From Patiriisocius sp. (GTDB lineage Bacteria > Bacteroidota > Bacteroidia > Flavobacteriales > Flavobacteriaceae): 64,000 nucleotides of DNA. The stretch lies in assembly GCF_051252435.1 (NCBI RefSeq), contig NZ_JBPOFW010000001.1, forward strand, positions 888,826 to 952,825, given 5' to 3'. Under the pieces are notes generated by a model that was not told where the DNA came from, ran no database searches, and saw only the letters and a program-made list of their open reading frames with translations. The first letter of the stretch is position 1, and each line of letters begins with the position of its first letter. Positions 13,097-62,101 of this stretch are shown piece after piece. Made by a program: the position numbers and the translations under genes.

Positions 13097-15742
13097 ATGA
13101 AAAAACTATTACTAATTACTTTTATGGCAATAGCAGGGATGGCTTCATCGTTTGCTCAAGGTACCGTAACAGGAACTGTTGTTGATGCAGATCTTGGTGG
13201 ACCTTTGCCGGGCGCTAATGTTCTTGTAACAGGAACAACAAATGGAACCATTACAGATTTTGATGGTAACTTTACATTAGAGGTAGCAAATAATACGGGT
13301 ACTCTTACACTAAGCTACGTAGGTTTTACAGGAAGAACTGTTAAGTACACGCTTCAAAATGGTGTTGCAAATTTAGGGTCACTTGATATTACTCCAGATG
13401 CAGCTTCACTTGATGAGGTTATCATTGTAGGAAGTGGAGTTATTCAAGTAGCAGAAGGACGTACAACTCCAGTTGCCGTTTCAACAATTAGAGAGGAAGA
13501 AATCCGCTTGAAAGTTGCTGGTAATGCAGAATTTACTGAGTCATTTAAAAACACACCTTCGGTTTATGTTGCAAACCAAGGAAGTGGTTTTGGTGATAGT
13601 GAGGTTTTCTTAAGAGGATTTGATGACACTAACACAGCATTTTTATTGAACGGTCAACCTATCAATAGCCAGGAAGATGGTCGTATGTTTTGGTCAAACT
13701 GGTCTGGTATGAGTGATGTAGCTAATGCTGTGCAGGTACAAAGAGGACTTGGTGCTTCTAAGCTTGCCATTTCTTCAGTAGGTGGTACCGTGAACATTAT
13801 ATCTAAGACTACAGATAAACAACAAGGTGGGTCTGTGCGTGTACTTGGCGGTAATGATAGTTACTTTAAAGGTACTGTTTCATATGATTCAGGATTGAAC
13901 GAAAATGGTTGGGCATTTTCAGTATTATTAGATCACTGGCAAGCACACAGAAAATATGCTATTGGTACTGCTGGGCAAGGACAAAATTATTTGTTTGCAG
14001 TAGGTTATAAGCCAAGTGATAGAAGTTCTTTCAACTTTTTACTTACTGGTGCTCCACAGTTTCACGATCAAAACTTCAGCAATAGACAAGAGGTGTATGA
14101 TGAGTTTGGTGGAAAACACAATACTCAAACAGGTTTCTTAGACGGAGAGCGTTACACAGAACGCCGTAATTACTACCACAAGCCAGTGGCAAACTTAAAC
14201 TGGGATTATGAGGTTAGTGATAAAACGGATTTATCTACAGTGGCATATGCTTCATGGGGCCGCGGTGGTGGTACAGGAGGTTTGGGTTCAAGTTCAAATC
14301 GTGTACGAATTAACAACAATCCAAACCAAGAAATCGATTTTGAGCAAATAAGAGATAACAACATCGCAAGAGCTGATAATGGTGTTGGAAACTTTGGTGA
14401 TTCTTTTATTAGGAGAGCTTCAGTGAACAATCACAACTGGTATGGATTACTTTCTAACTTAAATTATGAAGCAAATGAAAACTGGGATTTAAGTATTGGT
14501 GTTGACGCAAGACTTTATAAAGGAGATCATTTCCGTCAGGTAAATGATTTATTGGGTCTTACAGGATTTAATGACAACTTTGGAACGGATCGTCCAGATG
14601 GTTACACGTTTCAAAATGAATATGATGCAGATCCATGGTCAGCCTTATTTGACTATGCAAATGAAGCAAACCGTACGCAATATGATTATAGTGAGAACAT
14701 TAATTATGTAGGTGGTTTTGGTCAAGCAGAATATGTTTCTGGTGGATTCTCAGCTTTTGTGCAAGGTGCCGTTTCTACACAATCTTTTCAAAGAACGGGA
14801 CGTTTTACAGGAACTACGATTGATGGTGTTGACGGTTTAGGAGAATCTGAAAAAATCAGCAAACTAGGTTATAATGCTAAAGGTGGATTGGGTTATGCAA
14901 TTAATGATGCAAGTACTTTCTTCGGAAACGCTGGATATTATTCAAAGCAACCTTATTTAGATAATATTTTTCAAGATATCAGAAATTCAAATGCATTAGT
15001 TCAACCAGAAGTTGAGAATGAAGAAATTTTAGGATTTGAAGCAGGATATCGTTATAAAGCAGGAAACCTTAGAATAAATCTTGATGTTTATAGAACAGAG
15101 TGGGGAAATCGTTATGTAGCTTCTAGTGGAAGAACTACTGATTTAAGTGATCCAGAAAATCCAGTTGATGTGTTTTTTACAGATCGTTTTACAGACGTTA
15201 CTCAAATACACCAAGGATTTGAATTTGACTTTGAATACCGTCCAGATAGTGACCTTTACAGACTTAAAGGATATGGTTCATTAGGAAACTGGAAATATGA
15301 CGGAGCAACTCCATTTACACGTCAAAATGATGACACTTTAGAATTTATAACTCCCGAAGATAATACACTTGATCTTTCTGGGGTTAAAGTAGGTCGTGCG
15401 CCACAAACATCTTTCGGAGCTGGACTTATGATTAAATTATGTGAAGGACTTTCTATCGATGGTGATTACAATGTATATACAGACTTATATGCAAGAGTTG
15501 ATGCTGATCAAGTAATTGAAGCTGCACAAGACGGTGTAAGATTTCAGTCAGAAAGACTTGATCCTTACGGATTATTAGATTTAGGTCTTACTTACAAATT
15601 TAACTTTAGCGGAAACAAATTAACTTTCCGTGCTAATGCTTATAATGCAACTAATGAGGCATTCATAACTAGAAAAGATAATTTTGGTGTTGGACTTGGA
15701 AACGGTAGAACGTATAACGCAAGTTTACGTTATGCTTTCTAA
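13097..15742 (+). CDS. TonB-dependent outer-membrane receptor (CarboxypepD_reg + plug + barrel)
   Basis: 881 aa. Signal peptide, then GTVTGTVVDADLGGPLPGANVLVTGTTNGTITDFDGNFTL, FLRGFDDTNTAFLLNGQPIN, and a terminal ...ASLRYAF. Confidence 0.85.
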   Translation: MKKLLLITFMAIAGMASSFAQGTVTGTVVDADLGGPLPGANVLVTGTTNGTITDFDGNFTLEVANNTGTLTLSYVGFTGRTVKYTLQNGVANLGSLDITPDAASLDEVIIVGSGVIQVAEGRTTPVAVSTIREEEIRLKVAGNAEFTESFKNTPSVYVANQGSGFGDSEVFLRGFDDTNTAFLLNGQPINSQEDGRMFWSNWSGMSDVANAVQVQRGLGASKLAISSVGGTVNIISKTTDKQQGGSVRVLGGNDSYFKGTVSYDSGLNENGWAFSVLLDHWQAHRKYAIGTAGQGQNYLFAVGYKPSDRSSFNFLLTGAPQFHDQNFSNRQEVYDEFGGKHNTQTGFLDGERYTERRNYYHKPVANLNWDYEVSDKTDLSTVAYASWGRGGGTGGLGSSSNRVRINNNPNQEIDFEQIRDNNIARADNGVGNFGDSFIRRASVNNHNWYGLLSNLNYEANENWDLSIGVDARLYKGDHFRQVNDLLGLTGFNDNFGTDRPDGYTFQNEYDADPWSALFDYANEANRTQYDYSENINYVGGFGQAEYVSGGFSAFVQGAVSTQSFQRTGRFTGTTIDGVDGLGESEKISKLGYNAKGGLGYAINDASTFFGNAGYYSKQPYLDNIFQDIRNSNALVQPEVENEEILGFEAGYRYKAGNLRINLDVYRTEWGNRYVASSGRTTDLSDPENPVDVFFTDRFTDVTQIHQGFEFDFEYRPDSDLYRLKGYGSLGNWKYDGATPFTRQNDDTLEFITPEDNTLDLSGVKVGRAPQTSFGAGLMIKLCEGLSIDGDYNVYTDLYARVDADQVIEAAQDGVRFQSERLDPYGLLDLGLTYKFNFSGNKLTFRANAYNATNEAFITRKDNFGVGLGNGRTYNASLRYAF

Positions 15743-15860: not shown

Positions 15861-15890
15861 CCCCGCTACTTTAGCGGGTTCTTTTATTTT
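15861..15890 (+). terminator. Second terminator-like hairpin about 90 nt downstream of the first
   Basis: cccgct-acttt-agcggg followed by ttcttttatttt. Confidence 0.5.
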
Positions 15891-15921
15891 GTACCTTTGG
15901 GTCACCAACTTAAAACTTATA

Positions 15922-16365
15922 ATGATGTACGATGCTGTTCAAATAATTCATTCCTATTGGGCTTATTTAGTGGTCCTCGTTGTTTTCTTAGCCACAATCA
16001 ATGCGGTTGTTGGGCATTTCAGTAAAAAGGAGTACAGTTATAAGGATTTCAGGATTTCTTTGTTTGCGTTAATCGTCACTCATATTCAGTTGTTGATTGG
16101 TCTTGTGCTCTATTTTATATCGCCACTAGGATTTCAATCAATAAAGAATAATGGAATGTCTGTAGTGATGAAAGATTCAATGTTGCGCCTATATGCGGTT
16201 GAACACATTACAGTGATGATACTTGCAACTGTGTTTATTACCATAGGATATTCAAAACATAAAAAGAAATTGACATCTGCACCCAAATTGAAAACATTGG
16301 CAATTTTTTATACAATTGCTTTGGTGCTTATCTTGAGCAGAATTCCTTGGGCACAGTGGTTTTAA
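15922..16365 (+). CDS. Small integral membrane protein (4 predicted TM helices), function unknown
   Basis: The ORF track starts at a TTG (15889). The first ATG is at 15922 (MMYDAVQIIHSYWAYLVVLVVFLATI...). The protein is hydrophobic throughout. Confidence 0.5.
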   Translation: MMYDAVQIIHSYWAYLVVLVVFLATINAVVGHFSKKEYSYKDFRISLFALIVTHIQLLIGLVLYFISPLGFQSIKNNGMSVVMKDSMLRLYAVEHITVMILATVFITIGYSKHKKKLTSAPKLKTLAIFYTIALVLILSRIPWAQWF

Positions 16366-16404: not shown

Positions 16405-16453
16405 AAAAAAAAAAGCATCCAAATTTCATTTTGAAATTTGGATGCTTTTTTTT
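16405..16453. terminator. Bidirectional terminator between convergent genes
   Basis: A10-gcatccaaatttca-tttt-tgaaatttggatgc-T8. Confidence 0.85.
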
Positions 16454-16468
16454 ATTGATAACCCAAAG

Positions 16469-17527
16469 CTAATTGCTTTCCTTTTCTTTAATTAAATAAA
16501 CGAATACAGGAAAGTGATCACTGTATCCACCAGTAAAAGCACCATTCCCAAAAGAACGATACGGATATCCTTTGTACTGTCCTCTTGAGTTTGCTAAATA
16601 CGATTTGTTATAAATACCTGCTTTGTAAAACCGGTAGCTGCTGTAATCCTCTTTTGTAAACTCGGTAGAAAGAATCATTTGGTCAAATAAATTCCAACCA
16701 TCTCTATAAGCAAGCGTTCCTAAACCGTCTTTGAACATATTATACATAGGGTTATATAATTCTTTCATTTTCATTCCTTCTTTTTCGGCTTTAGGCTGCA
16801 ATACATCACGCACACTTGGGCTGGTTGGGTCATCGTTTAAATCACCCATGGTAATGATTTTTGCATAAGGTTCATCAACAAAAATAGAGTCCATGATATG
16901 TTTGTTCAATTTTGCTGCGCTTATTCTCTTTTTGCGACTACGCGCTTCGCCACCACTTCTTGATGGCCAGTGGTTGACTATAAAGTGGATTTTTTCTCCG
17001 TCGAGCATTCCGCTAACTACAAGTTGGTCCCGTGTAAAAATTCTTTTAGTAGGTTCGTCGTTATCATAAATAACTAACTCGTGCGCCTTATAGTTTGTAG
17101 GATTGAAAAGACGTTTTTGATATAAAAGCGCGACATCAATTCCGCGACGATCTGGAGAATCAAATTGGATGATTCCATAATCCTTAAGTAATAATGGTTC
17201 TTGGTTTACAAGATCTTCCAATACTTTTCTGTTTTCGGTTTCACAAACACCTATTATTGCTGGAGAAGTTCCTGTAATATCTTTTCCTATTTCTGAAATT
17301 ACCTTCGCCATATTTTTCAATTTGGCCTGATAGATTTCTTCTGTCCAATGATCTTTTCCGTCTGGAGTTCTATCATCATCAAAAGTGATGGGGTCGTTTT
17401 CTGTGTCAAATAAATTCTCGAGGTTGTAAAAGGCAATAGTATTCACTTTGTATTCTTTCTTTTTTTGCCCGAGTGCTACTGAGAAAGACAATAATAATAG
17501 GGGTAAAATGTACTTCGGAAATTTCAT
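16469..17527 (-). CDS. Secreted endonuclease/exonuclease/phosphatase (EEP) family protein, putative extracellular nuclease
   Basis: Signal peptide MKFPKYILPLLLLSFSVALGQ from the ATG at 17527 (the track start at 17578 is an upstream TTG). EEP motifs FYNLENLFD, VNHWPSRSGGE, GDLNDDP and GYSDHFPV. Confidence 0.8.
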   Translation of the reverse strand: MKFPKYILPLLLLSFSVALGQKKKEYKVNTIAFYNLENLFDTENDPITFDDDRTPDGKDHWTEEIYQAKLKNMAKVISEIGKDITGTSPAIIGVCETENRKVLEDLVNQEPLLLKDYGIIQFDSPDRRGIDVALLYQKRLFNPTNYKAHELVIYDNDEPTKRIFTRDQLVVSGMLDGEKIHFIVNHWPSRSGGEARSRKKRISAAKLNKHIMDSIFVDEPYAKIITMGDLNDDPTSPSVRDVLQPKAEKEGMKMKELYNPMYNMFKDGLGTLAYRDGWNLFDQMILSTEFTKEDYSSYRFYKAGIYNKSYLANSRGQYKGYPYRSFGNGAFTGGYSDHFPVFVYLIKEKESN

Positions 17528-17659
17528 TGAATGTGTAATATTAAGTTTATGTAAAGGATTCTGTAATTGAAGATTCAAAAGTAAATAATTGAATTGAAAG
17601 TCCTACTTTTGCTCGCATTTCATAACAATTTAATAATTATAACTCTTTAAAATTTCAGA

Positions 17660-20518
17660 ATGAAAAAATTCATTTTTACTTTTTTTACACTTTTTGTTGC
17701 GACAAGTTCAACCTTGGCGCAGGAAGCAGTTGTAAAAGGAAGGGTAGTGGATACCAATTCTAGCGATGTGATTCCAGATGTGTCTATTAGCATCGAGTCT
17801 AGTATTTACAGCACAGAAACTGATGCTGAAGGCCTTTTTTTAATTAGCAGTACAGAATTACCTCAAGGTGAACAAGTACTTCGGGTGACAAAACAAGGAT
17901 ACGTTGCAAAACGAATTCCCATCACTATCCAAAGCGGAAACACGTTAAATCTTGATCCGCTACAATTGGAACTTGACTTAACCGAAATTGAAGCTCAAAT
18001 AGGGATTATTAGTTTGAGCGATAACGAACTTGACCAAGATGAAGGAACATCTTTCAATACTTCAGGATTATTGCAAGCGAACAATGACGCATTTTTAAAT
18101 GCCGCGGCTTTTGATTTTAGCGCTACATTTTTTAGACCAAGAGGTCTTGACAATGCGGACGGTAAATTGTTGATCAATGGAATTGAAATGAACAAACAAC
18201 TTACCGGTCGCCCACAATGGAGCAATTGGGGAGGTTTAAACGATGTTCAAAGAAACAGAGAATTTTCAATGGGTCTTAGCGCAAACGATGCCAGTTTTGG
18301 TGGTGTTGCAGGAACGACAAATATTATCATGAGAGCTTCTCAATACAGAGAAGGAGGAAGAGTGTCTTTTGCATCGTCAGACAGAAGCTACCGTGGAAGA
18401 ATTATGGGAACGTATAATAGTGGATTACTTCAAAGTGGATGGGCGTATTCATTTTCCCTAGCGCGCCGTTTTGGTGATGAAGGTTATCAAGATGGAACGT
18501 TGTACGATGCTAATTCGTTCTTCGTTTCCGTAGAAAAGAAAATAAATGACGCGCATAGCTTAAACTTTACCGGTTTTTATACGCCTAATCGTAGAGGTCG
18601 TTCAACAGCAATCACTCAAGAAATGCGCGATTTAAGAGGGATTCGTTACAACCCTAATTGGGGATTTCAAGATGGTGATCAGAGAAATAGTCGTATCCGC
18701 GAAATCGAGGAACCTGTGTTGATGTTAAATCACTATTGGAATATGGGTGAAAATACAACGTTGAATACGAACGTAGCGTACCAATTTGGAAAATCTGGTC
18801 AAACTAGAATTGACAATGGAGGGACAAGACTTGTCATCATAGATGGTCAGGAATCATATATTGGAGGAGCTCGTAATCCCTTCGGAAATTACTATCAAAG
18901 ACTACCTAGTTATTTTTTAAGAGAAGATAGTCCTTCACCCTATGATTACCAACTGGCATATCAAGCACAACAAGAATTTATCAATGACGGACAATTGGAC
19001 TGGAACTCATTATACTTTGCCAACACAACGGCTACCAACGTGGCCAACGGTGGAAACTCCATTTACGCAATTCAAGAAGATAGAACAGATGACACGCAGA
19101 TAACGCTAAATTCTATTTTGAATACTGAAATTTCAGAAAATATTATTTTGAACGCTGCTGTTAATTACCGAAGCCTTAAAAGTGAAAATTTTGCTGAGCT
19201 TTCTGATTTACTTGGAGGAGCAGGATACTTGGATGTTGATTTCTTCGCAGGAGATGATGAGCAAGCACAAGAAGTTGTTGTAGGCGATATTGCGCAGAGT
19301 GATTTAAGAAACCGTAATCGTATTGCTCAGGAAGGCGATCGTTATAAGTATAATTATGAAATGAAAGCCGATGTGATTTCTGGATTTGCGCAAGGTCAAT
19401 TTAAATATCAAAAAGTTGATTTTTATGCTGCGGTTACAGGTTCGAACACAACTTATCAACGTAACGGATTGTTTGAAAACGGAAATTACCCAGGAGCAGC
19501 TTCCTTTGGTGAAAGTGAGCAATTGAGTTTTACAAATTTTGGTTTAAAGGCTGGTGCTACGTATAAAGTTTCGGGACGTCACTTAGTGGATTTAAATTTA
19601 GGTAGCTATTCAAAGGCACCAAACCTTAGAAACTCTTTTAGCAATGCCCGTATCAATAACGAAACTGTTTTTGGACTAGAAAGCGAGAAAGTGAATAGTG
19701 TTGACCTAAGTTATATTTTTAGGTCTCCTATAGTAAAAGCTAGATTGACAGGTTTCTATACTCAGATGAGCGATAAAACAGATATAGGGTTTTACTTTAC
19801 GGAGAATATTTCAGGAATAGGCATTGAGCAAGATGCTTTTGTGCAAGAAGTAATGACAGGAATTGATCAACGTCATGTAGGTGCAGAGCTTGGTATAGAA
19901 GCACAGGTAACACCCACTATTAAATTAAAAGGAGCCGCGAGTATGGGTAATTATACATTTAGCAACAACCCTAATCTTTATTTAACGAGTGATGATATTG
20001 ATGGCCGTGTAACTTTTGGAGATGGGACTGCAAAATTAAAAGATTACCATGTAGCGGGTGGTCCTGAGAGAGCATATCAAATAGGTTTTGAATACCGCGA
20101 TCCAGATTTTTGGTGGGTTGGCGTAACAGGAAACTTTTTTTCAAATGCGTATATTGATGTAAATAATTTGGCGAGAACGTCAAACTTTACGTCAGATTTT
20201 GATGGAAATACCTTCAATGATTATGACGAGACAGAAGCTAGAGAACTATTACAACAAGAACAGTTTGACAGTTATTCATTGGTCAATGTTGTAGGTGGTA
20301 AATCTTGGAAAATAGGAGATTATTACACGGGTTTTTTTGCCACCATTAACAACGTATTTGATCAGGAATACAAAACAGGTGGTTTTGAACAAGGGAGAAA
20401 AACAAATTATAGAGACGTACAAGAAGACACAAATTCGCCAGGAGGTAGAATTTTTGGCAATCGTTATTTCTTCGGAAACGGTACCACGTATTACCTTAAT
20501 TTATACGTAAGATTTTAA
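17660..20518 (+). CDS. TonB-dependent outer-membrane receptor (CarboxypepD_reg + plug + large barrel)
   Basis: 952 aa. Signal peptide, then VVKGRVVDTNSSDVIPDVSISIE, RGLDNADGKLLINGIEMN, and a terminal ...YLNLYVRF. Confidence 0.85.
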   Translation: MKKFIFTFFTLFVATSSTLAQEAVVKGRVVDTNSSDVIPDVSISIESSIYSTETDAEGLFLISSTELPQGEQVLRVTKQGYVAKRIPITIQSGNTLNLDPLQLELDLTEIEAQIGIISLSDNELDQDEGTSFNTSGLLQANNDAFLNAAAFDFSATFFRPRGLDNADGKLLINGIEMNKQLTGRPQWSNWGGLNDVQRNREFSMGLSANDASFGGVAGTTNIIMRASQYREGGRVSFASSDRSYRGRIMGTYNSGLLQSGWAYSFSLARRFGDEGYQDGTLYDANSFFVSVEKKINDAHSLNFTGFYTPNRRGRSTAITQEMRDLRGIRYNPNWGFQDGDQRNSRIREIEEPVLMLNHYWNMGENTTLNTNVAYQFGKSGQTRIDNGGTRLVIIDGQESYIGGARNPFGNYYQRLPSYFLREDSPSPYDYQLAYQAQQEFINDGQLDWNSLYFANTTATNVANGGNSIYAIQEDRTDDTQITLNSILNTEISENIILNAAVNYRSLKSENFAELSDLLGGAGYLDVDFFAGDDEQAQEVVVGDIAQSDLRNRNRIAQEGDRYKYNYEMKADVISGFAQGQFKYQKVDFYAAVTGSNTTYQRNGLFENGNYPGAASFGESEQLSFTNFGLKAGATYKVSGRHLVDLNLGSYSKAPNLRNSFSNARINNETVFGLESEKVNSVDLSYIFRSPIVKARLTGFYTQMSDKTDIGFYFTENISGIGIEQDAFVQEVMTGIDQRHVGAELGIEAQVTPTIKLKGAASMGNYTFSNNPNLYLTSDDIDGRVTFGDGTAKLKDYHVAGGPERAYQIGFEYRDPDFWWVGVTGNFFSNAYIDVNNLARTSNFTSDFDGNTFNDYDETEARELLQQEQFDSYSLVNVVGGKSWKIGDYYTGFFATINNVFDQEYKTGGFEQGRKTNYRDVQEDTNSPGGRIFGNRYFFGNGTTYYLNLYVRF

Positions 20519-20552
20519 ACAATAAAAATTAGAACACTTTAATATATTTCAG

Positions 20553-21959
20553 ATGAAAACATTAAATTTTTACAAACTAATCGTATTGCTTTCAGTAGCA
20601 GTATTTGTATCATCTTGTGTACAGGATGATGATTTTGACACGCCAGACACAACTGTTGTTGCGCCAAATATTCAAGGGAATATTATTTCAATAAATGCGA
20701 TGTATGACGCATTTTTGCAAAATGGGGGAGCTATAACCTTTGAGGGTACTGATAATTATATATCCGGATATGTTGTCTCTAGTGATGAAGGAGGAAACTT
20801 CTTTGAAGAATTAATCATCCAAGATGCACCCTCTAATCCTACACGTGGAGTGCGTGTGTTAGTAGATGTAAATCCATTGTTTACTTCTTTTGAGTTTGGC
20901 CGTAAAGTTTTTATAAAACTTGATGGATTGACTGCGGGTTTTGTTAATTCTGGCGACTTAGCGGGTAATTTTACTTTGGGAATATTAAACGGAGGTACGA
21001 CTGCAGAAAAAATTGCCGAGTCTAGGTTAGAAGAATTCGTCATTAGAGATGTTGAGGTAGCAGATATTGTAGCAAAGCCAATAACTCCTGCAGAATTTAG
21101 CATAGCAAATACAAATACGTATGTTCAATTAAACGATGTGCAATTTAACCGTAACATAGTATTGGGTGCCAATCGTCAAACATTTGCGGGTGAGCCAGGA
21201 GACATGTTTGATGGAGAACGTATTTTAGAAAGCTGTGAAACTGGAGGCACTGCTACTTTAAGCACGAGCACCTTTGCTGATTTTAAAAGTGTTTTATTGC
21301 CTGACGGAAGAGGTTCTTTAAATGCCGTTTTATCAACAGACTTTGAAGGAGATAACTTTATAGTTTCAGTAAACAGTCCAGAAGATATTAACTTTGATAG
21401 TACAGACCGTTGTGATCCAGACTCTTTCAATTGTACAGGCCCAAGTGGCGGAGGTACAGCATTTTTCTCTGAGGATTTTGAAGCCTTTGAAGCAATTGAA
21501 GATTATGTAGCTGCAGGATGGACTAATGTTAATGTTGGCGATGGGTCTGAGGTATGGGTCATTGGAAACTTTAGTAATAATAATTATGCACAGGTTAGTG
21601 GGTTTAACTCTGGGGAAGATGATATTCAAGCGTGGTTGGTTACACCTCCAATTAATATGGACAACACTATTGAAGAGGAGTTAAATTTCAATATTGAAGC
21701 TGCTTACGATAATGGATTGATTTTAACTGTTCTAGCATCTACAAACTTTACAGGAGATGTAACAACGGCAGATTGGGTTCAGTTAGACGCAAATGTGCCC
21801 GTTGGACCTTCTGGAGGTTTTGGAGGCTTTCAAGTTGCGGGCCCTATTAATGTATCGTGTATTGATGGAACTGTAAATTTTGCATTTTTCTATCAAGGTA
21901 ATGATCCAGATGCAACAACACGTTACCATGTTGACAACATTGTCCTAACTGGAAATTAA
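20553..21959 (+). CDS. Surface lipoprotein with an OB-like N-terminal domain (DUF5689-like) and a choice-of-anchor-J-like C-terminal domain
   Basis: 468 aa with a lipoprotein signal (LLSVAVFVSSC). YISGYVVSSDEGGNFFEELIIQD...GVRVLVD...GRKVFIKLDGL resembles the N-terminal domain of ExeM/NucH-type nucleases and DUF5689. The C-terminal part reads FSEDFEAFE...GWTNVNVGDGSEVW. Family names are from memory. Confidence 0.5.
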   Translation: MKTLNFYKLIVLLSVAVFVSSCVQDDDFDTPDTTVVAPNIQGNIISINAMYDAFLQNGGAITFEGTDNYISGYVVSSDEGGNFFEELIIQDAPSNPTRGVRVLVDVNPLFTSFEFGRKVFIKLDGLTAGFVNSGDLAGNFTLGILNGGTTAEKIAESRLEEFVIRDVEVADIVAKPITPAEFSIANTNTYVQLNDVQFNRNIVLGANRQTFAGEPGDMFDGERILESCETGGTATLSTSTFADFKSVLLPDGRGSLNAVLSTDFEGDNFIVSVNSPEDINFDSTDRCDPDSFNCTGPSGGGTAFFSEDFEAFEAIEDYVAAGWTNVNVGDGSEVWVIGNFSNNNYAQVSGFNSGEDDIQAWLVTPPINMDNTIEEELNFNIEAAYDNGLILTVLASTNFTGDVTTADWVQLDANVPVGPSGGFGGFQVAGPINVSCIDGTVNFAFFYQGNDPDATTRYHVDNIVLTGN

Positions 21960-21997: not shown

Positions 21998-22030
21998 AAA
22001 AAAGGCTCCCATTGTTGGGAGCCTTTTTTT
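21998..22030. terminator. Bidirectional terminator
   Basis: A6-ggctccc-attgtt-gggagcc-T7, between convergent genes. Confidence 0.85.
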
Positions 22031-27952: not shown

Positions 27953-30900
27953 TTAGTTTGCTTCTCTATTTATATAAATCCAATGAGAATACGTTTGCTC
28001 AAATACTGGGTCTGGTTGGCTCATTTTAAGAACCATGAAGTAAGTTCCAGTTGGAAGTTCTTCACCATCTGTAGTTTGTCCCTCCCATTGGTTTGTGTAT
28101 CCTTGTCCAAACACATAAACTTCACGTCCAAGTCTGTTGAATATTTGAAGACTTTCAATTCCTGTTCTAGCATTTAAGAACGAAAGGTCAAGAGTATCAT
28201 TGATACCATCACCGTTTGCTGAAATACCTTGCGAAATAACACAATTGGCGTTGTCTGAATATAAGTTTACATCTACTGATGTCATTCCCATACATCCATT
28301 ATTGTCGACAACAACAGAATAGGTTTGTGTTCCCATAGTGTTTGCTGGCAAGCTTACTTCAATGGTGTTTGATGTTTCACCGTCAAGTAATACATCGTTT
28401 AAAAACCATTGGTATGTAACACCATCCACACTTGCAGTTGCTACTAATGTATTTACAAATTCTGGACAAGTTTCAAAATTATCTGTGTCTGAAACGAGCT
28501 CTCCATTAATTTCTATGAAAGCAGTAACTGGGTCTGAAATTACAACAACTACCTCATCTGTAACTGTACATCCATCATCAGTAGTTAGGGTTAAAGAATA
28601 AGTACCCGATGCATTAACGGTTAACATGTCTGATGTTTCACCAGGCAATATATTACCATTTAAAAACCATTGATAAGAAGCTCCTGCTGTATCTCCTATT
28701 ATGTCAGGTATTATAGTATAGTCTTCTCCATCGCATACTGTAGTGTCTGGGCCTAAATCAACGTCTGGGGTAGGATTTACGATTACATTTACAGCTAGCA
28801 TCAAAGTACTACAAGGAGGAACCGTAATTGTTACCGTATACGTTCCAGACATGGTTGGTGTAAATAATGCATCAGTCGAAACTATATTCCCAGCAGCGTC
28901 CATCCAAGAGTATGTTACTGTAGTAAGATCAATACCTGGATTAGTAGGTGTAGCATCAAGCGGTGTAAATGCATCCCCATCACAAAATTCTACTTGTGCT
29001 GGTAAACCAGTTGTGATTACAATGGCATCTGTTATATTCAACATAAAACTAACGGTACTGTAACAATTAGGTTGATTGATTTTCTCAACTCTAACAAAAA
29101 TTGTTTCAGGATTTGTTGTGTTTACATAAGCAGCTGGCGTTGCAATGTCATTGTCTCCACTATCAGCATCTACTTGATTGTTATGGAATGTAATAACATG
29201 TAAAGCTGGATCTAAACCATCTAGTAATTCAGTAATTGTAGATGTTAAATCAAATGTTGCTTCTTCATTTCCTGTTTCATCGCATGCTTCAAGATCTGTT
29301 GGAGCTATAATTGCTGGTGGAGTACCATCGGTAAAAACAACAATATCGTCAACTGCAAGGTCATTTCCGCAGCCACCTGTAATATCATTTGTTATTACAA
29401 TTTGTACTTGTGTATTTGTACCACTATCAAAAACTACCGAGAAATTTATCCATTCAGGGTCTGATTGATTAGGAACCTCTCCTGTATTTGCAGTAGCAAT
29501 TACATTTCCTGCGGAATCTTCAACTTGATAAACTAATCTAGTTGGATCCCCACCAGCTGGACAAATGTTTGTATCGATGTCATAAACTGTTGACATCCAA
29601 AAAGCAAAAGCGTATTGAGTATTTGCAGCTACGGTAACATCACGACGATAAAGTTCAAACTCGCTAGGATCCTGAGAGGGGTTAAAGAAAATCATTTGAC
29701 CATTTGTATCTCCAGGGGTGTGGTCTTCCATACCTACATGCCATCCAGTATTTAGGTTGTCAGAAATACTTGTTACGGTGTATTCATTTCCTTCAATTTG
29801 AACAGTACCATCATTAAAATCTAATTGGGTAAATGGATGCGTTTCAAATCCAGTTCCAGTACCAAAGTCTTCATACAATACATTTTCAGCACAATCAAAA
29901 ATGCCACATCCTGCTTCTTTAGTTATTGTAACATCATCAGTAATTTCGTCAAAACCTCCGCCTGGCAACTCGACAACTAAGGCTGCTGTGTATGTAGTTG
30001 TTTCAGTAGGGCATACTTCAAAAATAGGATCATTACTTAATACAGTACCAGCAGCGTCTCTCCACTCAAATGTACTTGCGTTTGTAGGAGCACCACTAGG
30101 TACAAATCTCCAACTTTCATTTTGTGCTGACCATGGACCAACATTTCTGTCTTCCGGTACAGCAAATTGAGTAACATTGTTACCTTGAAGTCCAACCACA
30201 GCAAGACCATCATTCCATGCAGTACAGGTAGGTTTGTCTATTAGGTTAACATCAATAACATTAAGAGATTCATACAACAATATTTGTTGTGATGTGAAGA
30301 AAGTATCTTGGCAAGCAGTCCCAAAATGAGGTACTTCGTTGAAATTCAAAACAAAGATTCGATATGGAGCTGTTCCTGTGACAAAATAATTTATTCTATC
30401 AGGATCTGGATTAACTCCTGGATTTAAATCGTGAAATGCTCCAAAAATTGTGTTTAAAGGAAATTCATTATCGTTCATTGGAATCATGTCTGTTGGATCC
30501 ATGTTCCATCCATTATTTTGACCTGCAAGAGCTGTGTTAAATGATATTTGTCCATTGGCTCCCACTACGATATCTGTATATGCATTTCCGTAGTAATTGA
30601 ATTCAAAATCAATAGCTATTACGTTAGACCATCTATCGTCAATTGTAATATTTGTAGGTGCTCCACCATCAATAGGCGGTAAATCACAAATAGGACCTTG
30701 AATAGCATAACTTGTAGTATCTAAGAAAGGAGTTGTTAAGAAAGTTCCGTTTAAATCTATACAGGTTGTATCACAATCAAGAAAGGCATCATCACCTGCG
30801 CTCAAAATATCACAACTTCCACTAGAAACGCAATTAATAATTCCACTATCAATAACACAGTCAGTTGCACCACCATCTATCGTAATAATTGGAGTTACTC

Positions 30901-32314
30901 CTGGAGCATAGGTTCCAAAAGTAAACATACCTGGTGCAGTTGCCGTTTGTGCTGGGCTTCCTTGGTCATCGGTAATTGTTAATGTTGACGCACCTCCTAA
31001 ATCTGTAATATCAACTAAGACTGAAAATTCTTCACCAACTTCACACATTCCATCTTGAGTAAAGGTTGCAGTTGGAGGAACACATTCGCAATCAATAGGT
31101 CCACTTGGAACAATACAGTCTGGTACACCACCATCAACAATAATATTTACAATAGTATTAGGGTCATAGGGGCCAAATGTAAAAGTTCCAGGTGCCGTTG
31201 CTGTTTGATTTGGACTTCCTGCGGTATCAAAAATAGTTAAACTAGCTGCTCCACCTAAATCTGTTATAACAACGTCAATATTCCATATTTGTCCTGGGAA
31301 ACACATATCGTTAGACACAAAATCTACGGTTGGGGGAACACAGTCACATGCAATAGGTCCACTTGGAACGATACAATCGGTCACTCCACCATCTACAATA
31401 ATATTTACAACAGTTCCTGGTGCATAAGGTCCAAAAGTGAATGTTCCAGGTGCCATCGCCGTTTGGTTAGGGCTTCCGTTTGTGTCAAAAATAGTTAAAC
31501 TCGACGCACCACCTAAGTCGGTAATTACTACATCAATATTCCACATTTGCCCTGGGAAACACATATCGTTAGACACAAAATCCACGGTTGGCGGTACACA
31601 TTCACATGCGATTGGGTCACTTATTATCAAACAATTTGCATCACCATTGTCAACTGTAAAGATTACATCCATATTAGGGTCGTAAGGGCCAAAAGTTGTC
31701 GTGCCTATAGCAGTAACGACAACAGGAGCAGAACCTTGGTTGTCTGTAATGGTCATCGTGCCTGTACTTCCTAGGTCAGTTACATTTACGTCAATTTCAA
31801 AATCTTGACCTGTAAAACACATGTTGTTACTTACAAAATCAATTGTAGGAGGATTACATGTTTGACAAAATACATCCCAATCCCATTCAGTCTGTGATCC
31901 ACTTTGACAGCTCACTGATACATCAGAATCAATCATTAAGGTAATTGTATCACCTGAAGATTGAAAGGTAAGTCCTGCAAGTTGTCCTCCAGCACCATAA
32001 GGTGCGCCTGCATTTAAATTTGTTACGCCATCGCTATCAAGAACAATGACTTCATCAAAACTGACCTCAGTTGTACCTGCATTAAAGGTTAAAACTAGAG
32101 GAAATCCAGTGTCACTAGAATATTCGAATGCTGTTGTGTCAAAATTGCCATAACAATACGTGTCATTTATAGGGCCATCTGCACAGACTACAGTCGTTTG
32201 TGCATAACTAAAACCAACAAAGAAAAAAGCTAAAACAAAAAGCAATTGAGAACGCTTTATTTTAGCAAGAGAATTTATATTGTTAGAATTTTCGGAAGGT
32301 AATTGTAGCTTCAT
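27953..32314 (-). CDS. Large T9SS type-B sorting-domain surface protein (adhesin-like) with four ~86-aa tandem repeats
   Basis: 1453 aa from the ATG at 32314 (the track start at 32317 is TTG). Signal peptide, then four Cys-bounded repeats (aa ~151-496) and a segment resembling a NIDO-like fold (FEFNYYGNAYTDIVVGANGQISFN). Next come a jelly-roll/CBM-like domain ending GGCGNDLAVDDIVVF, Ig-like repeats, and a C-terminal GISANGDGINDTLDLSFL...WIYINRE type-B CTD. Confidence 0.85.
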   Translation of the reverse strand: MKLQLPSENSNNINSLAKIKRSQLLFVLAFFFVGFSYAQTTVVCADGPINDTYCYGNFDTTAFEYSSDTGFPLVLTFNAGTTEVSFDEVIVLDSDGVTNLNAGAPYGAGGQLAGLTFQSSGDTITLMIDSDVSVSCQSGSQTEWDWDVFCQTCNPPTIDFVSNNMCFTGQDFEIDVNVTDLGSTGTMTITDNQGSAPVVVTAIGTTTFGPYDPNMDVIFTVDNGDANCLIISDPIACECVPPTVDFVSNDMCFPGQMWNIDVVITDLGGASSLTIFDTNGSPNQTAMAPGTFTFGPYAPGTVVNIIVDGGVTDCIVPSGPIACDCVPPTVDFVSNDMCFPGQIWNIDVVITDLGGAASLTIFDTAGSPNQTATAPGTFTFGPYDPNTIVNIIVDGGVPDCIVPSGPIDCECVPPTATFTQDGMCEVGEEFSVLVDITDLGGASTLTITDDQGSPAQTATAPGMFTFGTYAPGVTPIITIDGGATDCVIDSGIINCVSSGSCDILSAGDDAFLDCDTTCIDLNGTFLTTPFLDTTSYAIQGPICDLPPIDGGAPTNITIDDRWSNVIAIDFEFNYYGNAYTDIVVGANGQISFNTALAGQNNGWNMDPTDMIPMNDNEFPLNTIFGAFHDLNPGVNPDPDRINYFVTGTAPYRIFVLNFNEVPHFGTACQDTFFTSQQILLYESLNVIDVNLIDKPTCTAWNDGLAVVGLQGNNVTQFAVPEDRNVGPWSAQNESWRFVPSGAPTNASTFEWRDAAGTVLSNDPIFEVCPTETTTYTAALVVELPGGGFDEITDDVTITKEAGCGIFDCAENVLYEDFGTGTGFETHPFTQLDFNDGTVQIEGNEYTVTSISDNLNTGWHVGMEDHTPGDTNGQMIFFNPSQDPSEFELYRRDVTVAANTQYAFAFWMSTVYDIDTNICPAGGDPTRLVYQVEDSAGNVIATANTGEVPNQSDPEWINFSVVFDSGTNTQVQIVITNDITGGCGNDLAVDDIVVFTDGTPPAIIAPTDLEACDETGNEEATFDLTSTITELLDGLDPALHVITFHNNQVDADSGDNDIATPAAYVNTTNPETIFVRVEKINQPNCYSTVSFMLNITDAIVITTGLPAQVEFCDGDAFTPLDATPTNPGIDLTTVTYSWMDAAGNIVSTDALFTPTMSGTYTVTITVPPCSTLMLAVNVIVNPTPDVDLGPDTTVCDGEDYTIIPDIIGDTAGASYQWFLNGNILPGETSDMLTVNASGTYSLTLTTDDGCTVTDEVVVVISDPVTAFIEINGELVSDTDNFETCPEFVNTLVATASVDGVTYQWFLNDVLLDGETSNTIEVSLPANTMGTQTYSVVVDNNGCMGMTSVDVNLYSDNANCVISQGISANGDGINDTLDLSFLNARTGIESLQIFNRLGREVYVFGQGYTNQWEGQTTDGEELPTGTYFMVLKMSQPDPVFEQTYSHWIYINREAN
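30830..31867 (-). repeat. Four in-frame tandem repeats of ~258 bp inside the 1453-aa gene; the two central copies (31088..31603) are near-identical
   Basis: The protein repeat CxCVPPTVDFVSNDMCFPGQxWNIDVVITDLGGAxSLTIFDTxGSPNQTAxAPGTFTFGPYxPxTxVNIIVDGGVxDCIVPSGPIxC occurs twice almost verbatim, flanked by two diverged copies. By eye the central copies are about 90% identical at the DNA level. Confidence 0.9.
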
Positions 32315-32433
32315 CAAGAATCTTTTTGGAGTTATTTTTCGGCTAAATTTAGTTAAAATATGTTAATGAAAATTGGATCCTTTGACTTTTAGATGAAGTG
32401 CATAAATTTACGACGAAACGCATATCTACCATA

Positions 32434-33414
32434 CTAATCATGTATGGTAAAAACACCATAAATGGGGAAGTGATCGCTTGTTCCCCCTAAATACCTAGGC
32501 CCCACGTATGTACGAAAAGGATGACCCTTATATACCCCTTCTAATACCCTTACGTCATTAATATTGAATATTTTAGCGGACTCAAATCTAAAGTTATTTC
32601 CATAGCTTTGAAGGAAATTTTGACATAATTATTTGATCAAAAAGCTTCCATTTTCCTTGGAAAATAAGACTGCCATCTTCTTTTGTTAATAACAACTCCA
32701 TAGGGTTGTACACATTTAAACCACTTATGGTTTTGATACTCTCGCTTTTAGGGTCGTCTTTGAAATCCCCAAGAACAATAATTTTAGCGTTTGAATTTGT
32801 ATTTCTAATTGCAGTAATGATTTCAACGTTTTTTGATGCGGCAATCAATCTGCTATATTCAGTAAGTTTTTCACCTGCTCTTCTGGAAGGCCAGTGATTT
32901 ACCAGAATATCAACAATTTCTCCCTCAAGCCTTCCTTTAACGTGAAGCACATCACGGGTATAATCCTGCGTACCGTCCTCTTTTTTAAGATATACCTCGT
33001 GAGTTCTCGTTTCAAAAATCTCAAAACAATCTGCATTATATAAAAGTGCCGTATCTATGCCTCGCTCGTCACGTGAATCAACATGTGCAAACTTATAATT
33101 GGTGTTTTTTAAATATTCAGAATCTATGAGTTGTTGAAGCACGAAGGCGTTTTCAATTTCGGCAACTCCTAGGAGGGAAGGAGGTTTTTGTGTGTCTTCA
33201 AACCCTATTTGGTTTATAATATGCCCGAGGTTGCGCACCTTCTTCTCAAACCGCGCTTGGTTCCATCGACGGTGAGATTCTGAAATCGACGGTGAGATTC
33301 TGAAGTAAAATCGTCATCATACGTATAGGGGTCATCAACTGTGTCAAATAGATTTTAAGGTTGTAAAAACCAATGTTATGTTTGATGATGTTCGCTTCGG
33401 AAATTTTAGACATT
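32434..33414 (-). pseudogene. Decayed paralogue of the EEP nuclease gene at 16469..17527, with at least three frame-disrupting lesions
   Basis: The central ORF 32594..33238 carries VNHWPSRRAGE and GDFKDDP. The N-terminal part (MSKISEANIIKHNIGFYNL / NLFDTVDDPYTYDDDFTSESHRR / WNQARFEKKVRNLGHIINQIG) and the C-terminal part (FRFESAKIF...GHPFRTYVGPRYLGGTSDHFPIYGVF) lie in other frames. Confidence 0.8.
33265..33304. repeat. Perfect 20-bp tandem duplication (atcgacggtgagattctgaa x2) that frameshifts the EEP pseudogene
   Basis: Read directly. Removing one copy restores ...SESHRRWNQARFEKK... in frame. Confidence 0.9.
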
Positions 33415-61621: not shown

Positions 61622-62101
61622 ATGATTAAATACGACGATAACGGAAAAATAATTGTCCCTCGTTTTAATGAGGAATCTGGTTTTTATACCACGAAAAAAC
61701 GCTCAAAGATTATGAGTAAAATTCGAGGAAAAAACACAAAGCCAGAGATGCTCCTTCGCAGAGCGCTTTGGAAAAATGGCCTGCGATACCGCGTCAATAA
61801 TAAAAAGCTTCCCGGCACGCCAGATGTTTCTATCACAAAATATAAACTCGCCATATTTGTGGATGGCGAATATTGGCACGGTTATGATTGGGATGTTCGG
61901 AGAGATAAAATTAAAACCAATAGAGAATTTTGGATTCCAAAAATTGAACGAAATATGCAAAAAGATACTGAGGTAAATAAAAAACTCAGCGAATTAGATT
62001 TCACAGTTTTTAGATTTTGGGAAAGCGAAATCAAGAACGATTTACAAAAATGTGTGAATGATATTTTGCAATACATTTCTGTATATCCGTATTTAATTTA
62101 G
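61622..62101 (+). CDS. vsr: Very-short-patch-repair endonuclease
   Basis: 159 aa. RSKIMSKIRGKNTKPEMLLRRALWKNGLRYRVNNKKLPGTPDVSITKYKLAIFVDGEYWHG is the canonical Vsr core. Confidence 0.9.
   Translation: MIKYDDNGKIIVPRFNEESGFYTTKKRSKIMSKIRGKNTKPEMLLRRALWKNGLRYRVNNKKLPGTPDVSITKYKLAIFVDGEYWHGYDWDVRRDKIKTNREFWIPKIERNMQKDTEVNKKLSELDFTVFRFWESEIKNDLQKCVNDILQYISVYPYLI

What the first reader, a model, noticed from the sequence alone, without database searches (positions are those of the whole stretch)
16469..21959. Divergent module of secreted EEP nuclease / TonB receptor / OB-like surface lipoprotein: a candidate extracellular DNA or nucleotide harvesting system
A signal-peptide-bearing EEP nuclease (16469-17527, minus strand) is transcribed divergently from a 952-aa TonB receptor. 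A lipoprotein follows the receptor after only 34 nt. Its N-terminal domain resembles the OB-like domain at the front of ExeM/NucH-type extracellular nucleases (DUF5689-like). Its C-terminus is choice-of-anchor-J-like.

The layout parallels a SusC/SusD pair plus an enzyme, but with a non-SusD binding protein and a nuclease in place of a glycosidase. That suggests capture and import of DNA-derived substrates as a phosphorus, nitrogen or nucleotide source.

I am not aware of an experimental description of this trio. It could also connect functionally to the iterated word described above.
Basis: inference. Interest (0 to 1): 0.65.

Follow-up and report, generated by a model that had tools for sequence, protein, structure and literature searches.

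The report
Known-type outer-membrane DNA uptake module
These three genes are a marine flavobacterium's copy of a DNA-import machine already shown by experiment in Riemerella (natural transformation) and Bacteroides (DNA breakdown), so the idea is right but not new; a short DNA word over-represented in the window may be worth a separate look as a possible uptake signal.

Summary

The trio is strongly conserved. It keeps the same order in 69 of 71 Flavobacteriaceae loci, and it recurs in Weeksellaceae, Bacteroidales, Cytophagales and Saprospirales.

- In Riemerella anatipestifer the transporter and lipoprotein homologues are essential for natural transformation (PMC8459023).
- In Bacteroides thetaiotaomicron the ddbABCDEF locus, whose ddbBCD core is nuclease, transporter and DUF5689 protein, is required for depleting exogenous DNA (PMC12478041).

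So "DNA capture and import" is supported by homology, with three corrections:
- The nuclease has only a type-I signal peptide, so it is most likely periplasmic rather than secreted.
- The closest characterised relative serves transformation.
- DNA was a poor sole C, N or P source for B. thetaiotaomicron.

Verdict: a new member of a known kind, of moderate-to-low interest.

One lead remains. The word ATTTCCGAAG occurs about 100 times more often than base composition predicts, and in coding sequence about 10-20 times more often than codon usage predicts. It could be a DNA uptake sequence for this machine. That idea is untested.

The parts
16469..17527 (-). DdbB-like nuclease of the EEP superfamily (PF19580) with a type-I signal peptide; predicted periplasmic
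   Evidence: PF19580 at E=4.8e-119 over the full profile. The catalytic set N35, E37, D131, N185, H186, D229, N231, D232, D282 and S336-D337-H338 is invariant in 76 orthologues, including distant ones. There is no Cys lipobox and no C-terminal sorting domain (sequence). It is 39% identical to the Weeksellaceae neighbour gene.
17528..17659 (.). 132-nt divergent promoter region with two back-to-back Bacteroidota -7 boxes (TACTTTTG): 17576-17583 on the minus strand and 17604-17611 on the plus strand
   Evidence: Sequence read. A TAnnTTTG box lies about 55-65 nt upstream of the transporter ATG in 56 of 72 loci, and usually about 50-65 nt upstream of the nuclease ATG in 58 of 72. Function is inferred from the known Bacteroidota promoter consensus.
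17660..20518 (+). DdbC / RA0C_RS04915-type TonB-dependent outer-membrane transporter. It has an N-terminal CarboxypepD_reg domain, a divergent plug and a C-terminal ...YVRF barrel signature
   Evidence: The family has 2268 representatives at E<=1e-3. It is 32% identical over its full length to the Amniculibacterium (Weeksellaceae) orthologue. No PDB sequence matches, even with a profile. There is no SusC/RagA TIGR04056 hit.
20553..21959 (+). DdbD / RA0C_RS04920-type surface lipoprotein. The DUF5689 part (about residues 40-285) forms two small beta-barrels. The C-terminal part (about 300-468) is a choice-of-anchor-J jelly-roll
   Evidence: The Riemerella-named model NF052645 aligns over residues 1-464 at 210 bits, below its 475-bit cut-off. 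The AF2 model has pLDDT 83.6. Foldseek matches the C-terminal domain to gingipain adhesin, MAM and CBM folds. The lipobox Cys22 and D25/D26 are invariant or nearly so.
16409..16451 (.). Bidirectional terminator-like hairpin closing the nuclease gene (and the convergent upstream gene)
   Evidence: 20-pair stem flanked by T/A runs on both strands.
21998..22029 (.). Terminator-like hairpin closing the two-gene transporter-lipoprotein operon
   Evidence: 14-pair stem with 6 GC pairs and a palindromic A/T-run flank.

Best explanation
The trio is a marine Flavobacteriaceae member of the DdbBCD / Riemerella-type DNA uptake module.

Proposed mechanism:
1. The lipid-anchored, surface-exported DUF5689 lipoprotein sits on the transporter as its substrate-binding partner and captures extracellular DNA.
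2. The 952-aa TonB-dependent transporter, energised by TonB, moves DNA or DNA fragments across the outer membrane.
3. The EEP nuclease, which carries only a type-I signal peptide, cuts the imported DNA in the periplasm.
4. The products can then go two ways: into nucleotide salvage and catabolism, or through ComEC as single strands for natural transformation.

Shown here: gene content, domains, signal types, operon structure, intact catalytic residues and phylum-wide synteny.
Shown elsewhere for homologues: a requirement for transformation (Riemerella), and a requirement for DNA depletion plus nuclease activity of DdbB (B. thetaiotaomicron).
Inferred: DNA as the substrate in this organism, the lid role of the lipoprotein, the periplasmic location of the nuclease, and the fate of the DNA.
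For: - Domain architecture matches what the papers report for RA0C_RS04915 (only a CarboxypepD_reg domain recognised) and RA0C_RS04920 (DUF5689 plus choice-of-anchor J/DUF5017).
- The published Riemerella locus is 5.7 kb, against 5.5 kb here.
- A Weeksellaceae locus (L084) has the same divergent PF19580 / transporter / DUF5689 layout. Identities to the window are 39%, 32% and 28%.
- The trio is kept in 69 of 71 Flavobacteriaceae loci. It also occurs in Tenuifilaceae, Rapidithrix and Lewinellaceae.
- In Rapidithrix a DUF5689 protein is fused to Endonuclease I at E=7.6e-92, which ties the domain to DNA.
- PMC12478041 shows that ddbABCDEF is needed for DNA depletion, that DdbB is an active nuclease with a type-I signal peptide, and that a DdbC-DdbD complex is predicted with DdbD resembling the p202 HIN domain.
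- PMC8459023 shows that both Riemerella genes are essential for transformation.
- PMC8383284 reports that tonBA loss inhibits transformation while iron uptake stays intact (abstract).
- The DUF5689 part of my model is two consecutive small beta-barrels.
- The EEP catalytic residues are invariant.
Against: - I could not retrieve the Riemerella or B. thetaiotaomicron proteins, so homology to them rests on shared Pfam/NCBIfam models, architecture, synteny and a Weeksellaceae bridge.
- The mature lipoprotein is very acidic (pI 4.05, net charge -51). That is unusual for a non-specific DNA binder.
- The whole-chain fold search returned only hits to the C-terminal jelly-roll and no OB/HIN hit in the top 50.
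- The transporter model is of low confidence, especially the plug (pLDDT 57.5). How a polymer would pass is unknown.
- No competence gene lies in the 64-kb window.
- F. johnsoniae was not transformable under laboratory conditions.
- DNA was a poor nutrient for B. thetaiotaomicron.
Confidence: 0.75

Rival explanations
1. The nuclease is secreted outside the cell and cuts extracellular DNA into oligonucleotides. The lipoprotein and transporter then import these, mainly as a phosphorus, nitrogen or nucleotide source.
For: - The overall PUL logic is endorsed by PMC12478041.
- Marine Flavobacteriaceae are polymer degraders, and the transporter family is abundant in ocean metagenomes (TARA-sourced hits).
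- The module is near-universal in the family, as expected of a housekeeping nutrient system.
Against: - The nuclease has a type-I signal peptide, no lipobox and no T9SS C-terminal domain.
- In the characterised system that signal type marks the periplasmic enzyme. The extracellular cutting there is done by the lipoprotein nucleases DdbA and DdbF, which this locus lacks.
- Pv2-type loci without a secreted nuclease showed minimal DNA depletion.
- DNA was a poor sole C, N or P source in B. thetaiotaomicron.
Confidence: 0.2
2. A dedicated natural-transformation receptor with sequence preference. The module takes up long DNA for recombination, as in Riemerella. The surface lipoprotein preferentially binds DNA carrying the over-represented word ATTTCCGAAG, which would act as a DNA uptake sequence.
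For: - The three-gene layout and the two-domain lipoprotein match what the papers report for the Riemerella locus.
- R. columbina prefers its own DNA, and no uptake sequence has been identified.
- The 8-mer core TTCCGAAG occurs 23 times (1.46 expected). The 10-mer occurs 17 times (0.15 expected). It lies on both strands (12 and 11). Seven copies fall in the roughly 13% of the window that is non-coding.
- In coding DNA the 8-mer occurs 16 times, against 1.54 +/- 1.28 in 500 synonymous shuffles.
- The word's flanks are not conserved, so it is not a fragment of a repeat element.
- The lipoprotein evolves faster than its partners: median identity 49%, against 62-63%.
Against: - Only 64 kb of the genome could be examined.
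- The density, about 0.36 per kb, is below that of Neisseria DUS or Haemophilus USS (about 1 per kb, from general knowledge).
- The 8-mer core is also about four-fold enriched across other Flavobacteriaceae loci, partly at conserved Phe-Gly-Asn sites of outer-membrane proteins.
- No experiment links the word to uptake.
- Competence has not been shown for any marine Flavobacteriaceae in the papers found.
- The word could serve another genome-wide role.
Confidence: 0.15
3. The module handles a different substrate. Candidates are RNA, free nucleotides or other phosphoesters, or a glycan bound by the CBM-like C-terminal domain. In that case the EEP protein acts as a phosphatase or phosphodiesterase rather than a DNase.
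For: - The EEP superfamily includes phosphatases and sphingomyelinases (Pfam description).
- The C-terminal domain of the lipoprotein resembles carbohydrate-binding modules and adhesin domains.
- The lipoprotein is strongly acidic.
Against: - Homologues are genetically tied to DNA in two organisms.
- A DUF5689 protein is fused to Endonuclease I in Rapidithrix.
- Purified DdbB degrades DNA.
- There are no glycoside hydrolases or SusD-like genes next to the locus.
Confidence: 0.08

Closest known systems
Riemerella anatipestifer natural-transformation locus: RA0C_RS04915 (transporter), RA0C_RS04920 (DUF5689 lipoprotein) and the adjacent ddbB-like nuclease; NC_017045:1014432..1020133 (PMC8459023, PMC12478041)
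   Same: - Same order (Flavobacteriales).
- Same three genes, with a similar total length (5.7 kb against 5.5 kb).
- The transporter is recognised only by its CarboxypepD_reg domain.
- The lipoprotein has DUF5689 plus a choice-of-anchor-J/DUF5017 C-terminal domain.
- The Riemerella-derived NCBIfam model aligns end to end with the window protein.
   Different: - The window protein scores below the family cut-off (210 bits against 475).
- Identity to the only Weeksellaceae relative I could fetch is 28-39%.
- Competence is not known for this organism.
- No ComEC lies nearby in the window, whereas in Riemerella comEC is four locus tags away (RS04895 against RS04915).
Bacteroides thetaiotaomicron ddbABCDEF DNA-utilisation locus (PMC12478041)
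   Same: - It has the same ddbB (type-I signal nuclease), ddbC (TonB-dependent transporter) and ddbD (DUF5689) core.
- It has the same PUL-like logic.
- It carries a surface-export signal C-x(1,2)-D/E-D/E on its lipoproteins.
   Different: - The window lacks the lipoprotein nucleases DdbA and DdbF and the extra surface protein DdbE.
- The nuclease here is transcribed divergently from the transporter.
- Bacteroidales relatives of the transporter are only about 35% identical.
- The physiological output described there, deaminated nucleobases in the gut, has no evident counterpart here.
SusC/SusD polysaccharide utilisation loci
   Same: - An outer-membrane TonB-dependent transporter with an N-terminal CarboxypepD_reg extension.
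- A surface lipoprotein gene immediately downstream.
- A degradative enzyme encoded next door.
   Different: - No match to the SusC/RagA model TIGR04056.
- The partner is not SusD-like.
- The enzyme is a nuclease.
- The resemblance is one of working principle, not of family membership.
DUS/USS-dependent DNA uptake in Neisseriaceae and Pasteurellaceae
   Same: - This applies only to the over-represented word.
- It is a short non-palindromic word, present in both orientations in genes and between them.
- It is enriched far beyond what codon usage allows.
   Different: - Those systems use type IV pili and the PilQ secretin.
- In Neisseria the receptor is the minor pilin ComP.
- Here the candidate machine is a TonB-dependent transporter with a lipoprotein.
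- The density is lower and no uptake bias has been shown.

Membership tests
DdbBCD / Riemerella-type DNA uptake locus | DdbC-type transporter: an outer-membrane protein of about 900-950 aa with an N-terminal CarboxypepD_reg domain and a TonB-dependent-transporter fold | tested here: met
   - Pfam detects only CarboxypepD_reg, as reported for RA0C_RS04915.
- Foldseek hits are exclusively TonB-dependent transporters.
- Weeksellaceae and Bacteroidales family members are 32-35% identical over their full length.
DdbBCD / Riemerella-type DNA uptake locus | A DUF5689 (PF18942) lipoprotein encoded immediately downstream of the transporter | tested here: met
   - DUF5689 at E=1.1e-45.
- A 34-nt gap separates the genes.
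- Lipobox plus CVQDD export signal.
- The same adjacency occurs in all five distant loci examined.
DdbBCD / Riemerella-type DNA uptake locus | An adjacent nuclease with a type-I signal peptide (DdbB-like) | tested here: met
   - PF19580 enzyme with a type-I signal and an intact catalytic set.
- A PF19580 gene flanks the transporter in the Weeksellaceae, Tenuifilaceae, Rapidithrix and Lewinellaceae loci.
- That DdbB itself belongs to PF19580 is inferred, not checked.
DdbBCD / Riemerella-type DNA uptake locus | Direct significant sequence similarity to the characterised proteins (RA0C_RS04915/04920; WP_008767132.1, WP_008762511.1, WP_048698952.1) | not testable with these tools
   - Those sequences could not be retrieved.
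- As a proxy, the Riemerella-named model NF052645 aligns over residues 1-464 at 210 bits.
DdbBCD / Riemerella-type DNA uptake locus | Required for DNA depletion or for natural transformation | not testable with these tools
   This needs genetics in this organism or a close relative.
NCBIfam NF052645, M949_1556 family lipoprotein (subfamily model) | Whole-protein score at or above the curated cut-off of 475 bits | tested here: not met
   The score is 210.2 bits. The window protein is a homologue outside the narrow Riemerella-centred subfamily. The Amniculibacterium protein also falls short, at 276 bits.
SusC/SusD pair | The transporter matches the SusC/RagA model TIGR04056 and the partner is SusD/RagB-like | tested here: not met
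   There is no TIGR04056 hit for the 952-aa protein, and no SusD family hit for the lipoprotein.
ExeM/NucH extracellular nucleases | A match to the ExeM/NucH family model, or a shared N-terminal OB-like domain | tested here: not met
   - No ExeM/NucH model appears among NCBIfam hits for either the nuclease or the lipoprotein at E<=0.01.
- The EEP domain belongs to PF19580 and only weakly matches the general PF03372.
OB-fold / HIN-like DNA-binding domain (as claimed for DdbD) | The DUF5689 domain adopts tandem OB-like barrels similar to the p202 HIN domain (4JBM) | tested here: inconclusive
   - The model shows two consecutive small beta-barrels.
- A Tenuifilaceae DUF5689 protein has a non-significant match to the OB-fold family PF01336, at E=0.066.
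- The whole-chain Foldseek list is dominated by the C-terminal domain, with no OB/HIN hit in the top 50.
- A domain-only search was not possible.
DNA uptake sequence (DUS/USS-like) - for the word ATTTCCGAAG | A short word over-represented beyond base composition and codon usage, in both orientations and without polarity | tested here: met
   (figures are given in the report).
DNA uptake sequence (DUS/USS-like) - for the word ATTTCCGAAG | Genome-wide distribution and experimentally biased uptake | not testable with these tools
   Only 64 kb is available, and attempts to extend beyond the window returned short contigs.

The most novel reading that the evidence does not exclude
The word ATTTCCGAAG would be a DNA uptake sequence read by the surface DUF5689 lipoprotein of this TonB-dependent DNA importer. 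The word is about 100-fold over-represented and is enforced even against codon preference. Three copies of its 8-base core lie inside the module itself; two of them are the full 10-mer. If true, to my knowledge this would be the first uptake-sequence system outside the Proteobacteria. It would also be the first to use a receptor that is not a type IV pilin. It would explain the unexplained self-DNA preference reported for Riemerella columbina.
Probability: 0.15. Interest if true: 0.85.

Novelty: new member of a known kind. Interest (0 to 1): 0.38.

Why it matters
The module itself is already described, so annotating this copy mainly improves annotation. [quoted passage not shown]

Two things go beyond that:
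- The nuclease/transporter/DUF5689 trio is near-universal in marine Flavobacteriaceae and present in at least four other Bacteroidota lineages. TonB-dependent DNA import is therefore probably a general trait of the phylum. That bears on dissolved-DNA turnover in the sea and on horizontal gene transfer.
- The module co-occurs with a strongly over-represented word. This gives a concrete, cheap experiment on whether the machinery discriminates between DNA sequences.

Tried and rejected
- **Sequence searches of the PDB.** There was no hit for the nuclease or the transporter, even with a 34-sequence profile. The only lipoprotein hit was a DUF4955 protein matching the C-terminal domain.
- **Fold search for an OB/HIN fold.** The whole-chain search of the lipoprotein model returned only C-terminal jelly-roll matches.
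- **Transporter model.** It came out at low confidence (pLDDT 57.5, plug below 50). I use it only to say 'TonB-dependent transporter fold'.
- **Reaching the Riemerella and B. thetaiotaomicron proteins.**
  - The single genome scan returned only close Flavobacteriaceae.
  - The homologue searches list only the 120 best hits.
  - Labelling 30 representatives reached a Weeksellaceae genus (Amniculibacterium) but not Riemerella.
- **Extending beyond the window** to test the word out of sample returned only short contigs lying inside the window.
- **Rejected readings of the word.** It is not part of a longer repeat element, because its flanks are not conserved. It is not a by-product of the Phe-Gly-Asn protein motif, as the synonymous shuffles show. 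It is not a polar Chi/KOPS-like word within this window, since the strands are 12 and 11 and mixed within co-oriented gene blocks.
- **Neighbouring genes rejected as parts of the module.** The conserved upstream 158-aa membrane protein (15889-16365) and the second TonB receptor (13097-15742) are absent from the distant loci.
- **No competence genes** were found in the window ORFs scanned.
- **Literature.** Searches for PF19580 and PF18942 found nothing.
Full report

The minus-strand ORF 16469-17527 encodes a 352-aa protein. It matches Pfam PF19580 (Exo_endo_phos_3) end to end at E=4.8e-119. It starts with a type-I signal peptide (MKFPKYILPLLLLSFSVALG|QKK), has no lipobox cysteine, and ends directly after the catalytic SDH motif. 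It therefore has no type-IX secretion C-terminal domain. The catalytic set of the EEP superfamily (N35, E37, D131, N185-H186, D229-N231-D232, D282, S336-D337-H338) is invariant in 76 orthologues.

After a 132-nt divergent intergenic region comes a 952-aa protein at 17660-20518. Pfam recognises only its N-terminal CarboxypepD_reg domain. Four results show it is nevertheless a TonB-dependent transporter:
- It aligns at 23-28% identity over up to 91% of its length with the neighbouring receptor at 13097-15742, which does score on Plug and barrel models.
- Distant members of its family carry Pfam Plug and barrel hits.
- It ends in the aromatic ...YVRF typical of outer-membrane barrels.
- Its AlphaFold model, though poor (pLDDT 57.5), matches only TonB-dependent transporters in the PDB, at E 6e-19 to 3e-13 over about 760-870 aligned columns.

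It has no detectable sequence relative among solved structures, even with a profile. It does not match the SusC/RagA model.

Thirty-four nucleotides downstream lies a 468-aa lipoprotein at 20553-21959. It has lipobox VSSC22 followed by VQDDD, which fits the C-x(1,2)-D/E-D/E surface-export signal. It matches DUF5689 at E=1.1e-45 and choice-of-anchor J at E=2.3e-16.

Terminator-like hairpins at 16409-16451 and 21998-22029 bound a monocistronic nuclease gene and a two-gene transporter-lipoprotein operon. Two back-to-back Bacteroidota -7 boxes (TACTTTTG, at 17576-17583 minus and 17604-17611 plus) sit in the intergenic region. Their positions are conserved in about 56 of 72 related loci.

**Conservation.** A genome scan with the lipoprotein gave 80 Flavobacteriaceae loci. 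The nearest is Patiriisocius marinistellae at 82% identity. Of the 71 loci with enough upstream DNA, 69 keep nuclease(-)/transporter(+)/lipoprotein(+) in that order. The two exceptions are an extra lipoprotein copy and a split transporter hit. Median identities are 62% for the nuclease, 63% for the transporter and 49% for the lipoprotein.

The transporter family is large: 2268 representatives at E<=1e-3 and 723 at E<=1e-30, all about 900-950 aa. Labelled representatives include Lutibacter, Leptobacterium, Capnocytophaga, Flavobacterium, Amniculibacterium (Weeksellaceae) and Tenuifilaceae (Bacteroidales).

Distant loci keep the trio:
- Amniculibacterium: PF19580(-), transporter, 464-aa DUF5689 lipoprotein.
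- Tenuifilaceae: PF19580(-), transporter, two DUF5689 genes.
- Rapidithrix: PF19580, transporter, two DUF5689 genes. One of these is fused to Endonuclease I at E=7.6e-92.
- Lewinellaceae: PF19580(-), transporter, DUF5689.

The fusion independently ties DUF5689 to DNA.

**What is known.** A search for 'DUF5689' found two directly relevant papers.

Huang et al. 2021 (PMC8459023) screened R. anatipestifer transposon mutants. [quoted passage not shown] Both are essential for natural transformation. They are predicted to form an operon, and homologues are adjacent across Flavobacteriaceae.

Sharan et al. 2025 (PMC12478041) defined ddbABCDEF in B. thetaiotaomicron. DdbA, DdbB and DdbF are active nucleases, DdbC is a TonB-dependent transporter and DdbD is a DUF5689 protein. 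Deleting the locus abolishes DNA depletion. DdbB has a type-I signal peptide and is placed in the periplasm. AlphaFold3 predicts a DdbC-DdbD complex, and DdbD resembles the DNA-binding HIN domain of p202. The Riemerella genes neighbour a ddbB homologue, giving a ddbBCD-like locus of 5.7 kb. The window trio spans 5.5 kb.

In Riemerella, loss of tonBA inhibits transformation without impairing iron uptake (PMC8383284).

**Membership.** I could not fetch the characterised proteins themselves, so the argument for membership is indirect but consistent:
- The same Pfam family (DUF5689).
- The same 'only CarboxypepD_reg recognised' behaviour of the transporter.
- The same two-domain lipoprotein.
- The same neighbour nuclease.
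- The NCBIfam model named after the Riemerella gene M949_1556 (NF052645) aligns with the window lipoprotein from residue 1 to 464 at 210 bits. That is below its narrow 475-bit cut-off.
- A Weeksellaceae locus has the identical layout, at 32% (transporter, full length), 39% (nuclease) and 28% (DUF5689 part) identity.

The window locus is not a SusCD pair and not an ExeM/NucH relative by HMM.

**Mechanism.** The best-supported reading is an outer-membrane DNA import module. The surface-exported lipoprotein captures DNA. The transporter moves it inward using TonB. The type-I-signal nuclease acts in the periplasm. The locus lacks the lipoprotein nucleases that do that job in B. thetaiotaomicron, and loci without them depleted DNA only minimally.

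Whether the imported DNA is eaten, recombined or both is open. The three-gene layout and the lipoprotein architecture point to the Riemerella (transformation) type. The near-universality in marine polymer degraders fits a nutritional role.

Caveats:
- The mature lipoprotein is very acidic (pI 4.05, net -51), with only a handful of invariant basic residues (R101, R117, K118, R165, R200, R223, R286).
- The OB/HIN fold could be supported only by the two-barrel secondary-structure pattern of a confident model (pLDDT 83.6) and a non-significant OB-fold match in a relative. The whole-chain fold search is dominated by the C-terminal jelly-roll, which resembles gingipain adhesin, MAM and CBM folds.
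- No competence genes lie in the window ORFs I scanned.

**The iterated word.** A k-mer scan found it.
- The core TTCCGAAG occurs 23 times (1.46 expected from composition). TTTCCGAAG occurs 21 times (0.46 expected). ATTTCCGAAG occurs 17 times (0.15 expected).
- Copies lie on both strands (12 and 11). They occur in sense and antisense within genes, and seven of the 23 fall in the roughly 13% of the window that is non-coding. The flanks are not conserved beyond A-rich positions, so this is not a fragment of a repeat element.
- In coding DNA the 8-mer occurs 16 times, against 1.54 +/- 1.28 (maximum 6) in 500 synonymous-codon shuffles. Phe-Gly-Asn is written TTCGGAAAY in 7 of 13 cases against about 1.1 expected, although TTC is the rare Phe codon at 18%.
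- Three copies of the core lie in the module. One covers codons 3-5 of the nuclease (within MKFPKY; the 12-mer AAATTTCCGAAG spans codons 2-5). Two are in the transporter, at 18880 and 20470.
- At orthologous sites P. marinistellae often has TTT where the window has TTC.
- The 10-mer density falls from 2.7 per 10 kb in the window, to about 0.65 in the closest clade, to about 0.09 in other Flavobacteriaceae loci.

R. columbina prefers its own DNA in competition assays, and no uptake sequence has been found there (PMC7965970). An uptake-sequence role for the word is therefore a legitimate hypothesis but an untested one. I could examine only 64 kb, and attempts to extend the sample failed. The density is lower than for classical DUS/USS. 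The 8-mer core is also mildly enriched in other genera, partly at conserved protein sites.

**Verdict.** The locus is a new member of a known kind. Its main added value is the demonstration of phylum-wide synteny and the possible link to the over-represented word.

Noticed in passing
window, 23 sites incl. 2240, 4308, 6023, 8198, 9851, 11674, 11791, 14920, 17513, 18880, 20470, 33395, 33508, 37318, 44147, 50777, 50789, 50961, 55036, 59511, 61530, 62706: The word ATTTCCGAAG (core TTCCGAAG) is about 100-fold over-represented. It lies on both strands, in genes and between them, and is enforced against codon preference: 16 coding copies against 1.5 in synonymous shuffles. It is a candidate uptake sequence or some other genome-wide signal.
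   Followed up: partly
window 32434-33413 (-): A second PF19580 nuclease paralogue without a signal peptide is broken. tblastn with intact paralogues (51-55% identity in L003, L004, L054, L063) needs three reading frames. One break coincides with a perfect 20-bp tandem duplication at 33265-33304. There is an apparent 1-nt deletion near 33355 and another shift near 32620. It is either a pseudogene or an assembly error.
   Followed up: partly
L082:11131-13290 (Rapidithrix thailandica): This is a 719-aa protein that joins DUF5689, a DUF5017/MAM-like domain and Endonuclease I (E=7.6e-92). It is encoded right after a DdbC-type transporter and another DUF5689 gene. The domain fusion links DUF5689 to DNA.
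   Followed up: partly
window 20553-21959 (+): The mature lipoprotein is extremely acidic (pI 4.05; 16 K+R against 67 D+E). That is odd for a proposed non-specific DNA binder. It may point to cation-bridged or sequence-specific binding.
   Followed up: partly
window 61622-62101 (+): The precomputed Pfam annotation of an identical contig gives this ORF as a Vsr-type very-short-patch repair endonuclease (PF03852). Its immediate neighbours are not methyltransferases: upstream is an Fe-S protein, downstream an aminotransferase.
   Followed up: no
window 15889-16365 (+) and 13097-15742 (+): A 158-aa multi-pass membrane protein with no Pfam family precedes the nuclease gene in 55 of 80 Flavobacteriaceae loci. 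A second, conventional TonB receptor lies upstream in the closest relatives. Both are absent from the distant loci, so they are probably not part of the module.
   Followed up: partly
window 31071-31696 (-), inside the 1454-aa ORF 27953-32317: There is a 258-bp tandem repeat of 2.1-2.4 copies at 77-82% identity inside a very large ORF. Neighbouring ORFs have C-terminal sequences that I read by eye as type-IX-secretion-like; I did not scan them against Pfam.
   Followed up: no
L081 (Tenuifilaceae), L082 (Rapidithrix), L056 (Winogradskyella MAG): Several lineages carry two DUF5689 genes after the transporter: a short 289-aa form plus a long form with extra C-terminal domains. This suggests modular diversification of the surface binding partner.
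   Followed up: no
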